In this document: in pieces, positions 1 through 4,286 of the stretch
Layout: each line of letters starts with the position of its first letter
Numbering within the stretch: the first letter of the stretch is position 1
From: a virus
Taxonomy: Duplodnaviria; Heunggongvirae; Uroviricota; Caudoviricetes
IMG/VR virus record: IMGVR_UViG_3300029796_000320
Length of the DNA stretch: 5,453 bases
Direction: 5' to 3' (one strand)
Made by a program: the position numbers and the translations under genes
The notes under the pieces: generated by a model
Databases searched by the model: none
What the model was told of the DNA's origin: nothing
Seen by the model: only the letters and a program-made list of their open reading frames with translations

Positions 1-351
1 ATGGAAGATAAATTGAAGATCAACATGAAGCGCCAGTGGCCTGAACCAAAAGATGGTGAGCCTCGCTTGCACATTAAAGAACCCGACAACTCTCCGCTAA
101 CTCCGGATGGTTGGGTTATAGTGCCGAAGAAACTAACCGCTGAGAACGGCGCTAAGGGTGTGCTATCCGGTGAATTTTCAGAAACTACGTTTATAAGCTG
201 CCCGGAATGCTTTGGTGATGATGATTGCGAAACTTGTGACTGCAGCGGGAGAATCGAAATCAAGGTTACAGTCAGTTGGACAACTATCAAAACTATTTGG
301 GCTAAAGGGTGTGAGCACTTTTCAATAGTAGCACCGCAGCAAGATGGGTGA
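1..351 (+). CDS. Hypothetical phage accessory protein with a Cys4 zinc-knuckle-like motif (CxxC-x5-CxxC); start uncertain and possibly 5'-truncated by the window edge
   Basis: Open frame runs from window position 1 to a TGA at 349-351, in the same orientation as xis/int (the early-leftward transcription direction). Motif C-P-E-C-F-G-D-D-D-C-E-T-C-D-C is encoded at nt 199-243. No family recognised from memory. Confidence 0.5.
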   Translation: MEDKLKINMKRQWPEPKDGEPRLHIKEPDNSPLTPDGWVIVPKKLTAENGAKGVLSGEFSETTFISCPECFGDDDCETCDCSGRIEIKVTVSWTTIKTIWAKGCEHFSIVAPQQDG

Positions 352-477: not shown

Positions 478-720
478 ATGTTCAAACGCTGCATCACCAA
501 GTGTGGAAGCACACCTGACATTCAAGCTTTTATTAATGAAGATGGTAAGCTTGTTGTTGAGAGGAGTGGTCCTTTTATTAGCAAACAACTTATCATTACC
601 TCTCCAGCGGAGATGGCAGGGGAATGGATAGTTTCTGAACCAGAGGAGTGGCACATCCCGCTTCCTTATGGCCCTCAGGGACTGATTTATAACCGTTATG
701 TTCAGAAGGAGGCGGGTTGA
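478..720 (+). CDS. Hypothetical small phage protein, 80 aa from the ATG at 478 (an in-frame ATG at 436 would give 94 aa)
   Basis: GGAG at 467-470 sits 7 nt upstream of the ATG at 478; the upstream ATG at 436 has no Shine-Dalgarno and would overlap a TATAAT-like hexamer at 443-448. Same strand as xis/int. No recognisable motif. Confidence 0.45.
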   Translation: MFKRCITKCGSTPDIQAFINEDGKLVVERSGPFISKQLIITSPAEMAGEWIVSEPEEWHIPLPYGPQGLIYNRYVQKEAG

Positions 721-999
721 CAATGTCAGGCATAACATCGCCGAGAAATCGAAAGAAAAACAGAACAAGGTAAACGTTGACCTTGCAGCATCAGGCATGG
801 AGTACAGAGAGCGCCTTAACATACCTGTTATCACTGAGCAGGTAGCATGAGAGCAACCTGAGCACTCACGCGAGTATTTCATGGAGCGCATCAGATACTA
901 TCGCGAGCAGTCGTTAAACATGCCCAAGGGAAGCAACCCATGGTATATCGAGATGGATGAACAGAACGCCAAGAAGTAAACGCAATTTGAACGAATGCG

Positions 1000-1025
1000 A
1001 ACCCGCCGAGTGCGGGTTTTCTTTT
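1000..1025 (+). terminator. Candidate rho-independent terminator
   Basis: Perfect 7-bp stem aacccgc (1000-1006) / gcgggtt (1012-1018) with loop cgagt, followed by ttttctttt. Confidence 0.55.
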
Positions 1026-1030
1026 ACCTG

Positions 1031-1055
1031 AACTCGCTACGGCGAGTTTTGTTTT
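1031..1055 (+). terminator. Second terminator-like hairpin, or a 5'-UTR structure of the downstream ORF
   Basis: Perfect 7-bp stem aactcgc (1031-1037) / gcgagtt (1042-1048) with loop tacg, followed by ttttgtttt. It ends only 3 nt before the GGAG of the next ORF. Confidence 0.4.
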
Positions 1056-1068
1056 ATGGAGACAAGAA

Positions 1069-1413
1069 ATGTCAGATTTGGCTATGAAGGTTTTGAAATG
1101 GCAATCGACTGGCGATGTTGGCATCAGTAGCGCAACTCTTGCCTCAATCGCATGTGGACTGAAAAAGAATATCTATGGTCATAGCTTCGGTGCTCCACAT
1201 GACGCAGCCGATTTCAGACGATGCGTTGCACTTGTTGAGCAGATTCCAGAAATCAGAGATTCATTCAACAAGGTTGCAAAGCGCGTTCCGGCATTCAAAG
1301 GAATCCTCAACGAATGGGATTCCCTCGTTGCTCTGTTGAAGTCTGAAATGAAGATACACGGAAACAAAGCACCAGAGACTTACAGAAGAATCAGCGAGCT
1401 ACGCAAGGACTAA
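1069..1413 (+). CDS. Hypothetical 114-aa phage accessory (moron-like) protein of unknown function
   Basis: ATG at 1069 preceded by GGAG at 1058-1061 (7-nt spacing); clean 345-nt ORF on the xis/int strand. Sits between two terminator hairpins and the pI/xis region. Lambda coordinates as I recall them (orf55 and ea8.5 upstream of xis) do not map onto any ORF here, so the region looks mosaic relative to lambda. Confidence 0.6.
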   Translation: MSDLAMKVLKWQSTGDVGISSATLASIACGLKKNIYGHSFGAPHDAADFRRCVALVEQIPEIRDSFNKVAKRVPAFKGILNEWDSLVALLKSEMKIHGNKAPETYRRISELRKD

Positions 1414-1504
1414 CCATGAAATAACACCGCCTCACACTCGATGAGGCCTGTTCATTGCTCAATGATATCCAGACCTACCATCGCCGCATCAATGCGGCTT
1501 TTTC

Positions 1505-1518
1505 TTGCGTGTAATTGC
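1505..1518 (+). promoter_or_regulatory. cII-binding box (TTGC-N6-TTGC) of the Int promoter pI
   Basis: TTGC at 1505-1508 and 1515-1518 separated by 6 nt, immediately upstream of the xis ATG at 1531. In lambda the cII-activated pI promoter overlaps the start of xis, so its transcript encodes Int but not intact Xis. Confidence 0.6.
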
Positions 1519-1530
1519 GGAGACTTTGCG

Positions 1531-2931: not shown

Positions 2932-4215
2932 GTGAACACATTTTCAGTTTCCCGTCTGGCGCTGGCATTGGCTTTTGGCGTGACGCTGACCGCCTGTAGC
3001 TCAACACCGCCCGATCAACGTCCTTCTGATCAAACCGCGCCTGGTACCTCTTCTCGCCCGATTCTGTCGGCAAAAGAAGCGCAGAATTTCGATGCTCAAC
3101 ACTATTTTGCATCCCTGACACCAGGTGCGGCAGCGTGGAATCCTTCCCCGATTACCCTGCCTGCGCAACCTGACTTTGTTGTCGGCCCGGCGGGTACTCA
3201 AGGTGTAACGCATACCACGATTCAGGCGGCGGTAGATGCGGCAATTATCAAGCGTACCAACAAGCGCCAGTATATTGCCGTGATGCCTGGTGAGTATCAG
3301 GGAACGGTGTATGTCCCTGCCGCTCCGGGTGGAATTACTCTGTACGGTACAGGTGAAAAACCGATTGATGTGAAGATTGGGCTTTCCCTTGATGGTGGCA
3401 TGAGCCCTGCCGACTGGCGTCACGACGTCAACCCGCGCGGCAAATATATGCCAGGTAAACCGGCGTGGTATATGTACGATAGCTGCCAGAGTAAACGCAG
3501 CGACAGTATCGGTGTTCTCTGCTCTGCGGTCTTCTGGTCACAAAACAATGGCCTGCAACTGCAAAACCTGACCATCGAAAACACGCTGGGCGATAGCGTA
3601 GATGCGGGTAACCATCCGGCGGTGGCACTACGTACTGATGGCGACAAAGTGCAGATCAATAACGTCAACATTCTCGGTCGTCAGAACACCTTCTTTGTCA
3701 CCAACAGCGGTGTGCAGAACCGTCTGGAAACGAATCGTCAGCCGCGTACGCTGGTGACCAACAGCTATATTGAAGGGGATGTGGACATCGTTTCTGGTCG
3801 CGGCGCAGTGGTGTTCGATAACACCGAATTCCGCGTGGTGAACTCCCGTACCCAGCAAGAAGCGTATGTGTTTGCACCGGCTACGCTGTCCAACATTTAC
3901 TACGGTTTCCTCGCCGTAAACAGCCGTTTCAATGCTTCCGGTGATGGTGTGGCGCAACTGGGCCGCTCGCTGGATGTTGATGCTAATACCAACGGTCAGG
4001 TGGTGATCCGTGATAGCGCCATCAACGAAGGTTTTAACACGGCGAAACCGTGGGCCGATGCGGTGATCTCAAATCGTCCGTTTGCGGGTAACACCGGCAG
4101 CGTTGATGATAAAGACGAAATACAGCGCAATCTGAATGACACAAACTACAACCGCATGTGGGAATACAATAACCGCGGCGTGGGTAGCAAAGTGGTTGCA
4201 GAGGCGAAGAAGTAA
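2932..4215 (+). CDS. ybhC: YbhC, outer-membrane lipoprotein of the pectinesterase-like / acyl-CoA thioesterase family (427 aa)
   Basis: GTG start at 2932 with GGAG at 2922-2925. N-terminal lipoprotein signal MNTFSVSRLALALAFGVTLTAC with lipobox LTAC. Full-length match to E. coli YbhC from memory. Its position next to attλ agrees with the K-12 gene order ybhJ-ybhC-attλ-ybhB-bioA. Confidence 0.93.
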   Translation: MNTFSVSRLALALAFGVTLTACSSTPPDQRPSDQTAPGTSSRPILSAKEAQNFDAQHYFASLTPGAAAWNPSPITLPAQPDFVVGPAGTQGVTHTTIQAAVDAAIIKRTNKRQYIAVMPGEYQGTVYVPAAPGGITLYGTGEKPIDVKIGLSLDGGMSPADWRHDVNPRGKYMPGKPAWYMYDSCQSKRSDSIGVLCSAVFWSQNNGLQLQNLTIENTLGDSVDAGNHPAVALRTDGDKVQINNVNILGRQNTFFVTNSGVQNRLETNRQPRTLVTNSYIEGDVDIVSGRGAVVFDNTEFRVVNSRTQQEAYVFAPATLSNIYYGFLAVNSRFNASGDGVAQLGRSLDVDANTNGQVVIRDSAINEGFNTAKPWADAVISNRPFAGNTGSVDDKDEIQRNLNDTNYNRMWEYNNRGVGSKVVAEAKK

Positions 4216-4258: not shown

Positions 4259-4286
4259 GGCGCTATATTTCATAGCGCCTTTTTTT
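4259..4286 (+). terminator. Rho-independent terminator of ybhC
   Basis: Stem ggcgctat (4259-4266) / atagcgcc (4272-4279) with loop atttc, followed by a T7 run at 4280-4286. Confidence 0.6.

What the first reader, a model, noticed from the sequence alone, without database searches (positions are those of the whole stretch)
721..1068. ~350 bp without a convincing gene, ending in tandem terminators: possible sRNA, decayed gene or micro-ORF
Between the stop of the upstream ORF (720) and the 114-aa ORF there are only very short frames on the + strand: 16 aa at 723-773, 17 aa starting at 797, and 32 aa at 881-979 (MERIRYYREQSLNMPKGSNPWYIEMDEQNAKK). The 32-aa frame ends about 20 nt before the strong hairpin plus U-tract at 1000-1025. 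This could be a prophage small RNA, a small-protein gene, or a pseudogenised remnant from mosaic recombination. A perfect TTGACA at 717-722 has no matching -10, so a promoter is not established. The long minus-strand frames predicted here look non-protein-like.
Basis: seen in the sequence. Interest (0 to 1): 0.45.

Follow-up and report, generated by a model that had tools for sequence, protein, structure and literature searches.

The report
Broken prophage copy of polymerase theta gene
The apparently gene-less 350 bases are a dead copy of a phage gene for a helper subunit of the bacterial DNA-replication enzyme, followed by two transcription stop signals that phage lambda also carries, so the region is ordinary and already annotated in public genomes.

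Summary
The region is not gene-less, though. The 17-aa frame (797) and the 32-aa frame (881) belong to one reading frame, 698-979, broken only by a TGA at 848-850. Its conceptual product matches Pfam DNA_pol3_theta (E 1e-28) and the solved phage P1 Hot protein (E 4e-29). The TGA replaces a conserved Arg, which is CGA or CGT in relatives. A second lesion is a 1-nt deletion in codon 3. It disconnects the native ribosome site (AGGAGG 707-712) and start (ATG 723) from the theta frame and creates the 16-aa frame. RefSeq already annotates identical DNA as "DNA polymerase III subunit theta, pseudogene, internal stop". Ninety-one of 5,426 complete E. coli genomes carry the locus. None is within 99% identity of the only uninterrupted copy found, and the four whose annotation I read are all marked pseudogenes. 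Sister copies carry independent frameshifts, a second stop or a truncation, and substitutions look relaxed. The tandem terminators correspond to the predicted t3/t4 terminators downstream of lambda ea8.5. No evidence supports an sRNA or a functional micro-ORF. Verdict: a decayed moron gene plus conserved terminators, already known, low interest.

The parts
478..720 (+). Upstream 80-aa hypothetical gene (context). Its stop TGA 718-720 lies 2 nt before the native theta start.
   Evidence: RefSeq CDS WP_000476265.1 in identical DNA; phrog_9613, E 7e-50.
707..725 (+). Native translation start of the theta gene: Shine-Dalgarno AGGAGG (707-712) and ATG (723-725). It is now out of frame with the theta domain.
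   Evidence: Intact 85-aa homologues start MSGHNIAEKS from the aligned ATG. Sequence read.
723..773 (+). 16-aa frame (MSGITSPRNRKKNRTR), a by-product of a 1-nt deletion in codon 3 (between 730 and 731: ATG TCA GG- CAT against intact ATG TCA GGT CAT).
   Evidence: DNA alignment with intact E. coli (L048) and L037 genes. The deletion is present in 34 of the 36 clade sequences; in the other two (L035, L047) the start region is itself altered.
698..979 (+). Extent of the theta (hot/holE-like) pseudogene as RefSeq draws it. Homology to theta runs from about 731 to 979.
   Evidence: Pfam PF06440, 99 bits, E 1.2e-28; PDB 1se7 Hot E 3.7e-29 and 1du2 HolE E 4e-15; PGAP 'pseudo, internal stop'.
848..850 (+). 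In-frame TGA replacing the conserved Arg of the VAREQPE motif (CGA to TGA).
   Evidence: HMMER alignments; codon is CGA in L033/L036/L042/L043 and CGT in L037-L040 and L048.
881..979 (+).
   Evidence: Same frame as 698-850; hits phrog_1105 theta positions 55-79.
999..1025 (+). Intrinsic terminator 1: stem AACCCGC/GCGGGTT, loop CGAGT, tail TTTTCTTTT. It occupies the position of lambda predicted t3. A mosaic junction lies at about 1012-1014.
   Evidence: same position as the lambda hairpin; homology to phages that lack theta begins at window 1014.
1030..1055 (+). Intrinsic terminator 2: stem GAACTCGC/GCGAGTTT, loop TACG, tail TGTTTT. It is the homologue of lambda predicted t4.
   Evidence: One stem pair is U-A here, U.G in lambda, HK022 and L043, and C-G in Gifsy-1. 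Bloch et al. 2014, Table 4.
1058..1413 (+). Shine-Dalgarno GGAG (1058-1061) and the 114-aa ORF (1069-1413) of the next module ('ORF114 of phage 434 / N15 early protein homologue').
   Evidence: phrog_1229, E 3e-51.

Best explanation
Window 698-979 is a pseudogene of a phage-borne DNA polymerase III theta-subunit homologue, the family of E. coli HolE and phage P1 Hot. It sits in the exo-xis accessory region of a lambdoid prophage, at the position lambda gives to ea8.5.

Shown:
- Its ancestor was an 85-aa gene starting at ATG 723, placed 2 nt after the stop of the upstream gene and served by the AGGAGG at 707-712.
- A 1-nt deletion in codon 3 put that start out of frame, so ribosomes starting there would make only a 16-aa peptide.
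- A later CGA-to-TGA change removed a conserved Arg codon and cut the remaining frame.

Inferred: no full-length theta-like protein is made, and the DNA persists by hitch-hiking within a mosaic prophage module.

The two hairpin/T-tract elements at 999-1025 and 1030-1055 are intrinsic terminators. They correspond to the pair lambda carries downstream of ea8.5, upstream of its 55-aa ORF and xis. By analogy with lambda, they would stop leftward transcripts that are not antiterminated before the xis-int end, while N-modified pL transcription reads through. That role is inferred and was not tested here.
For: Homology:
- The conceptual translation matches Pfam DNA_pol3_theta at 99 bits (cut-off 34.6, E 1.2e-28).
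- It matches PDB 1se7 (P1 Hot) at E 3.7e-29 and 1du2 (HolE) at E 4e-15. The stop aligns to the Arg of VAREQPE.

Existing annotation:
- RefSeq marks identical DNA and more diverged copies as theta pseudogenes with an internal stop. One copy is marked frameshifted.

Native start and frameshift:
- Most of the 120 listed intact homologues are 85 aa. All five 85-aa sequences I aligned begin MS(G/H/D)(H/F)NIA.
- DNA alignment shows a 1-nt gap in codon 3 of the window clade.

Ongoing decay:
- 32 of 36 clade sequences have TGA.
- Others carry a 2-nt deletion, a 1-nt deletion, a second stop (TAG at 851) or a 5' truncation; in L047 ATG 723 is changed to AGG.
- 91 of 5,426 complete E. coli genomes carry the locus. 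None is 99% or more identical to the only uninterrupted copy, L033.

Selection:
- dN/dS is 0.06-0.16 on comparisons involving intact genes.
- Window against L033 shows 0 synonymous and 6 nonsynonymous differences.
- Within the clade there are 6 synonymous against 12 nonsynonymous or nonsense sites.

Related remnant: Gifsy-1 keeps an internally deleted remnant of the same gene with the same terminators.

Terminators: plus the published prediction of t3/t4 in lambda (PMC4195576).
Against: - ATG 698 is in frame with the theta domain, so the codon-3 deletion alone need not be inactivating. One copy (L033) is open from 698 to 979.
- The within-clade ratio (about 0.5 by my rough count) is relaxed but not demonstrably neutral, and the counts are small.
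- The TGA allele is found in at least four different downstream prophage contexts. That fits hitch-hiking but would also fit retention for some other reason.
- No expression data were available.
- Terminator activity is predicted, not measured.
Confidence: 0.9

Rival explanations
1. The gene is still functional at a low level. Translation would start at ATG 698, and the UGA at 848-850 would be read through (Trp inserted, or suppression), giving a small amount of a 93-aa Hot-like protein. The leaky stop would act as an expression throttle.
For: ATG 698 is in frame, and one copy (L033) is open throughout from that ATG. The TGA allele is widespread and sits in several prophage contexts.
Against: - I see no Shine-Dalgarno sequence before 698, while the strong one serves the out-of-frame ATG 723.
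- The stop replaces an Arg that is Arg in every intact homologue aligned.
- Sister copies carry frameshifts, a second stop and truncations.
- Substitutions are mostly nonsynonymous.
- The single database protein with W at this position is a gene-caller artefact; its DNA has TGA.
- Folding the 63 nt from the UGA gave no hairpin that I would read as a SECIS element.
Confidence: 0.04
2. The region yields a small regulatory RNA, for example a 3'-end-derived RNA that ends at the terminator at 1025. The dead coding sequence would be kept as its body.
For: Strong terminators lie right after the remnant. Gifsy-1 and Gifsy-2 keep the last ~35 nt of the coding remnant plus both hairpins at 85% identity even though the middle of the gene is deleted.
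Against: - There is no + strand promoter in 300-1600.
- No Rfam family reaches threshold; rsmX scores 26 bits against 56 and rests mostly on the terminator hairpins.
- Conservation follows the theta reading frame: dN/dS is 0.13-0.16 against intact genes.
- The terminator pair is equally conserved in phages that have a different gene upstream (lambda ea8.5, HK022, mEp234). The hairpins are therefore explained without an sRNA.
Confidence: 0.03
3. One of the short frames encodes a functional small protein: the 16-aa frame at 723-773, which has a good ribosome site, or the 32-aa frame at 881-979.
For: AGGAGG lies 10 nt upstream of ATG 723, directly after the upstream gene's stop, so the 16-aa peptide is probably translated. 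PHROGs holds families made of the gene halves (phrog_10131, phrog_29833).
Against: - The 16-aa frame exists only because of the 1-nt deletion. Conservation follows the other frame.
- ATG 723 is changed to AGG in L047.
- I see no Shine-Dalgarno sequence before the 32-aa frame, which is the C-terminal part of the theta frame.
- The PHROG 'families' are best explained as annotation of the two pseudogene halves.
Confidence: 0.02

Closest known systems
Phage P1 Hot (homologue of theta; PDB 1se7, 2ido) and E. coli HolE, the DNA polymerase III theta subunit (Pfam PF06440)
   Same: There is clear sequence homology across the whole domain, including KVNVDLAASG, ERLNIPVI and EQPE...YFMER. Like hot, it is an accessory gene carried by a temperate phage. 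P1 Hot can substitute for theta and is expressed in lysogeny and lytic growth (Chikova & Schaaper 2005 and 2007, as cited in PMC7556043).
   Different: The window copy is not an intact gene. It has a 1-nt deletion in codon 3 and a TGA in place of the conserved Arg. It lies in the exo-xis region of a lambdoid prophage, not among P1 late genes. An intact E. coli prophage homologue, L048, lies upstream of DUF1367 and NinG genes instead.
Predicted terminators t3 and t4 (and t5) of the lambda exo-xis region (Bloch et al. 2014, PLoS One, PMC4195576, Table 4)
   Same: - Window 1030-1055 is nearly identical to lambda t4.
- Window 999-1025 occupies the position of t3, with the same hairpin + T-tract design and the same spacing.
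- Window 1483-1498 matches t5, just upstream of xis.
   Different: Hairpin 1 has a different stem and loop: AACCCGC-CGAGT-GCGGGTT against lambda AATCCTCGC-ACTC-GCGGGGATT. This version travels with the theta module (also in Gifsy-1 and L007). The mosaic junction falls inside this hairpin.
Lambda ea8.5, the occupant of the same slot in lambda
   Same: It holds the same position: the last accessory gene before the tandem terminators and the short ORF / ORF114 / xis-int end.
   Different: No sequence relationship was seen. It is a different accessory gene in the same slot.

Membership tests
DNA polymerase III theta / Hot family (Pfam PF06440) | Sequence match to the family profile above the curated threshold | tested here: met
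   99 bits against a cut-off of 34.6, E 1.2e-28, profile positions 2-67 of 70; phrog_1105 E 2.7e-32; PDB Hot E 3.7e-29.
DNA polymerase III theta / Hot family (Pfam PF06440) | Uninterrupted reading frame of about 76-87 aa with its own start | tested here: not met
   TGA at 848-850 lies inside the domain. A 1-nt deletion in codon 3 separates ATG 723 from the frame. RefSeq flags the locus as a pseudogene.
DNA polymerase III theta / Hot family (Pfam PF06440) | Purifying selection on the protein, as in intact members | tested here: inconclusive
   Comparisons involving intact genes give dN/dS 0.06-0.16. Window against L033 shows 0 synonymous and 6 nonsynonymous differences. Within the clade there are 6 synonymous against 12 nonsynonymous or nonsense sites, plus several indels. 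This points to relaxation, but the counts are small.
DNA polymerase III theta / Hot family (Pfam PF06440) | Binds and stabilises the epsilon (DnaQ) proofreading subunit | not testable with these tools
   Needs a pull-down or genetic complementation. No intact product is expected here.
Rho-independent (intrinsic) terminators | G+C-rich hairpin followed directly by a T-tract on the transcribed strand | tested here: met
   Sites at 999-1019 + TCTTTT and 1030-1049 + TGTTTT. The MFE fold forms both hairpins, -28 kcal/mol, z -2.4.
Rho-independent (intrinsic) terminators | Hairpin maintained across relatives, with pair-preserving changes | tested here: met
   One pair of hairpin 2 is U-A, U.G or C-G in different phages. 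Hairpin 1 exists in two sequence versions that both fold. Only a few variable pairs are available, so this is qualitative support.
Rho-independent (intrinsic) terminators | Transcript 3' ends at the T-tracts in vivo | not testable with these tools
   Needs Term-seq or RNA-seq. The lambda t3/t4 equivalents are themselves only predictions (PMC4195576).
Known small RNA families (Rfam 15) | Match reaching a family's gathering score | tested here: not met
   The only hit is rsmX at 26.2 bits against a gathering score of 56, E 0.063, and it spans the two terminator hairpins.

The most novel reading that the evidence does not exclude
The truncated allele may be kept for a reason. One possibility is that UGA read-through gives a trickle of a Hot-like theta that tunes host proofreading in lysogens. 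Another is that the ~50-aa N-terminal fragment, or the RNA, has acquired a role of its own. Either would explain why one TGA allele is spread over about 90 E. coli genomes in several prophage backgrounds.
Probability: 0.04. Interest if true: 0.5.

Novelty: already known. Interest (0 to 1): 0.1.

Why it matters
It matters mainly as a clean-up. An apparent orphan region is explained by a gene that automated annotation already flags as dead, and by terminators that correspond to ones predicted in lambda.

Two small points may help annotators:
- The native start is ATG 723, not the ATG 698 used by PGAP. The locus therefore carries a frameshift as well as the annotated internal stop.
- The two halves of this pseudogene appear to have seeded their own 'unknown function' PHROG families.

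More broadly, the locus shows how accessory ('moron') genes such as theta homologues decay in lambdoid prophages while the neighbouring regulatory hairpins are kept.

Tried and rejected
- **Phage megablast.** At first sight it seemed to show the region conserved in HK022, mEp234 and Stx phages. After correcting for the query offset, those matches are to the 114-aa ORF and terminator 2 only (window 1012 onward), not to 721-1011.
- **Rfam at E <= 1.** Only a sub-threshold rsmX hit, resting mostly on the terminator hairpins. Rejected.
- **Promoter at the TTGACA 717-722.** No -10 hexamer follows and the scan found no + strand promoter. The hexamer is simply GGT-TGA-CA, spanning the upstream stop codon.
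- **Selenocysteine or programmed recoding at the TGA.** The nearest relatives have CGA or CGT (Arg), and I saw no SECIS-like hairpin. Rejected.
- **Programmed frameshift joining ATG 723 to the theta frame.** Homology in the theta frame already begins at 731, only 5 nt after the ATG, which leaves no room for a slippery site. Rejected.
- **Protein P0001, with Trp at the stop position.** It looked like a revertant. Its DNA (L047) has TGA, and the look-up reports that the locus does not translate to the query, so it is a gene-caller artefact.
- **Minus-strand ORFs 433-891 and 891-1124.** No PHROG match, and they are antisense to conserved genes.
- **Literature search for prophage theta homologues.** Little came back beyond the P1 Hot citations in PMC7556043.

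Full report
**Setting.** The window is the int-proximal end of a lambdoid prophage. It contains an Xis frame (102-aa ORF 1441-1749, with the start matching lambda Xis at ATG 1531) and a 356-aa integrase (1727-2797). A 427-aa ORF (2932-4215) follows on the + strand, and a long minus-strand ORF starts at 4285. From memory, not tested here, these two are E. coli ybhC and ybhJ at the lambda attachment site. The finding (721-1068) lies upstream of a 114-aa ORF (1069-1413). Phage records describe that ORF as 'ORF114 of phage 434 / N15 early protein homologue'. This is the exo-xis accessory region transcribed from pL in lambda.

**Checking the observation.** TTGACA is at 717-722 and has no -10 partner. 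The terminator scan finds hairpin + T-tract sites at 999-1019 and 1030-1049. In 300-1600 it finds six such sites, against 1.0 +/- 0.9 in shuffles. Folding 980-1068 gives both hairpins in the minimum-energy structure (-28 kcal/mol, z = -2.4).

That frame is open from ATG 698 to 979 apart from one TGA at 848-850.

**What it is.** With the stop masked, the 93-codon frame matches three references:
- Pfam PF06440 (DNA polymerase III theta subunit): 99 bits against a cut-off of 34.6, E 1.2e-28.
- The solved structure of phage P1 Hot (1se7): E 3.7e-29.
- E. coli HolE (1du2): E 4e-15.

The TGA aligns with the Arg of the conserved VAREQPE motif. A distant DNA search of phage records finds annotated 'DNA polymerase III theta subunit' genes of Klebsiella, Serratia, Salmonella and P1-type phages at 71-79% identity.

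In complete E. coli genomes, identical DNA (strain ERP001) is annotated by PGAP as 'DNA polymerase III subunit theta', pseudogene, 'internal stop'. The coordinates correspond to window 698-979. Two more diverged copies in other prophage contexts carry the same annotation.

**A second, unannotated lesion.** A protein search returned hundreds of intact homologues, and most of the 120 listed are 85 aa. All five 85-aa sequences I aligned begin MS(G/H/D)(H/F)NIA, for example MSGHNIAEKSKEEQDKVNVDLAASG. An intact E. coli prophage gene (L048) reads ATG TCA GGT CAT AAC ATC. The window reads ATG TCA GG- CAT AAC ATC, so one base of codon 3 is missing.

ATG 723 lies 2 nt after the upstream gene's TGA (718-720) and 10 nt after AGGAGG (707-712). 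This is a typical arrangement for translationally coupled genes. PGAP's ATG 698 is merely the only in-frame ATG left. I see no Shine-Dalgarno sequence before it, and it lies inside the upstream gene.

**Evidence of decay rather than function.** I aligned 36 sequences of this clade: the window, 31 IMG/VR loci and four E. coli loci.
- 32 of the 36 have TGA and 4 have CGA.
- Of the four CGA copies, two have a 2-nt deletion and one a 1-nt deletion. Only L033 is open throughout.
- Another copy has a second stop (TAG at 851), and one is truncated at the 5' end by recombination. A further clade copy outside this set, L047, has ATG 723 changed to AGG.
- Among 5,426 complete E. coli genomes, 91 carry the locus. 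None is 99% or more identical to L033, and the best match is annotated 'frameshifted'.
- A database protein with Trp at the stop position proved to be a gene-caller artefact. Its DNA has TGA.

Substitution patterns agree with decay:
- dN/dS is 0.06-0.16 on comparisons involving intact genes.
- Window against L033 shows 0 synonymous and 6 nonsynonymous differences.
- Within the clade I count 6 synonymous against 12 nonsynonymous or nonsense segregating sites, a ratio of roughly 0.5.

These counts are small, so this is supporting evidence and not proof. Gifsy-1 carries a further-decayed version: about 14 N-terminal codons (FNIAAKSQEDRDKV) joined out of frame to about 11 C-terminal codons (YMEMSEQNTKK*), followed by the same two hairpins.

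**The terminators.** Lambda itself has the same pair, downstream of ea8.5 and upstream of its 55-aa ORF (lambdap35). Hairpin 2 is almost identical to the window's. Hairpin 1 has a different stem but the same position and T-tract. Bloch et al. 2014 list them as predicted terminators t3 and t4 of the lambda exo-xis region. Their t5 corresponds to window 1483-1498, just before xis (PMC4195576).

The pair is also present in HK022, mEp234, Stx2 phage 1717, vB_EcoP-720R6 and Gifsy-1. One base pair of hairpin 2 is U-A in the window, U.G in lambda, HK022 and L043, and C-G in Gifsy-1. That pattern fits selection on the helix.

Homology to phages that lack theta starts at window 1014. A mosaic junction therefore falls inside hairpin 1. 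The 'tandem' look partly reflects two modules meeting there.

How the pair works is inferred from lambda biology. Unmodified leftward transcripts would stop here, ahead of the xis-int end, and N-antiterminated pL transcripts would pass through. This was not tested.

**Rivals.**
- *Read-through of the TGA.* This cannot be excluded by sequence alone. It is made unlikely by the lost start, the conserved Arg and the independent lesions in sister copies.
- *An sRNA.* There is no promoter, no Rfam support and no conservation beyond what the coding frame and the terminators explain.
- *Functional micro-ORFs.* The short frames are by-products of the two lesions.

**Comparison and novelty.** By descent the locus belongs to the Hot/HolE family, but it fails the test of an intact reading frame. 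I file it as a pseudogene of that family. P1 Hot is known to substitute for theta and to be expressed in lysogeny (citations in PMC7556043). Public annotation already marks this locus as a theta pseudogene, and the equivalent terminators have been predicted in lambda. I rate it as already known, with low interest.

Noticed in passing
window 698-850 and 881-979; PHROGs phrog_10131 and phrog_29833: The two halves of the broken theta gene match two separate PHROG families labelled 'unknown function' (E 1e-38 over residues 1-50; E 1e-28 over residues 42-93). These families look like artefacts of annotating the pseudogene halves as genes.
   Followed up: partly
L044 (Gifsy-1, NC_010392) 1450-1607; Gifsy-2 also matched: An unannotated, internally deleted remnant of the same theta gene lies between STM2623.1n and the DinI homologue. 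The N-terminal codons FNIAAKSQEDRDKV are joined out of frame to YMEMSEQNTKK*, and the same two terminator hairpins follow.
   Followed up: partly
window 999-1019 against lambda L046 1957-1936 (minus strand): Hairpin 1 comes in two versions at the same position. The loop of the window version (CGAGT) is the reverse complement of the lambda loop plus one base (ACTC+G), as if the palindromic element had been flipped. The mosaic junction with theta-less phages falls inside this hairpin.
   Followed up: no
window 1483-1530: A third terminator-like hairpin (GCCGCATCAATGCGGC + TTTTTCTT) corresponds to the predicted lambda t5. It is followed by TTGC-N6-TTGC (1505-1518) just before the xis start (ATG 1531). 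From memory this looks like the cII-dependent pI promoter arrangement of lambda; I did not test it.
   Followed up: no
L005 (E. coli ERP001), L006, L007, compared with the window: The same theta pseudogene module is joined to different downstream modules: ORF114 + TorI, a 55-aa ORF + excisionase + a tyrosine integrase, or a 55-aa ORF + an HTH regulator + a different integrase. This illustrates module shuffling after the gene died.
   Followed up: partly
L048 2501-2758 (E. coli assembly GCA_043182395.1): An intact 85-aa theta homologue in another E. coli prophage sits upstream of DUF1367 and NinG genes, not in the exo-xis region. Theta genes therefore occupy different slots in lambdoid genomes.
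   Followed up: no
window 1-351: The 116-aa ORF at the window start matches the C-terminal end of Pfam dATP-dGTP_PPHyd (residues 1-30, E 1e-7), followed by a Cys-rich tail. RefSeq calls the corresponding longer gene in ERP001 'DUF550 domain-containing protein', so the window probably holds only its 3' part.
   Followed up: no
window 765-786, minus strand: A terminator-like hairpin + T-run lies on the minus strand inside the theta remnant (GCAAGGTCAACGTTTACCTTGT + TCTGTTTTTC). It is probably a chance match.
   Followed up: no
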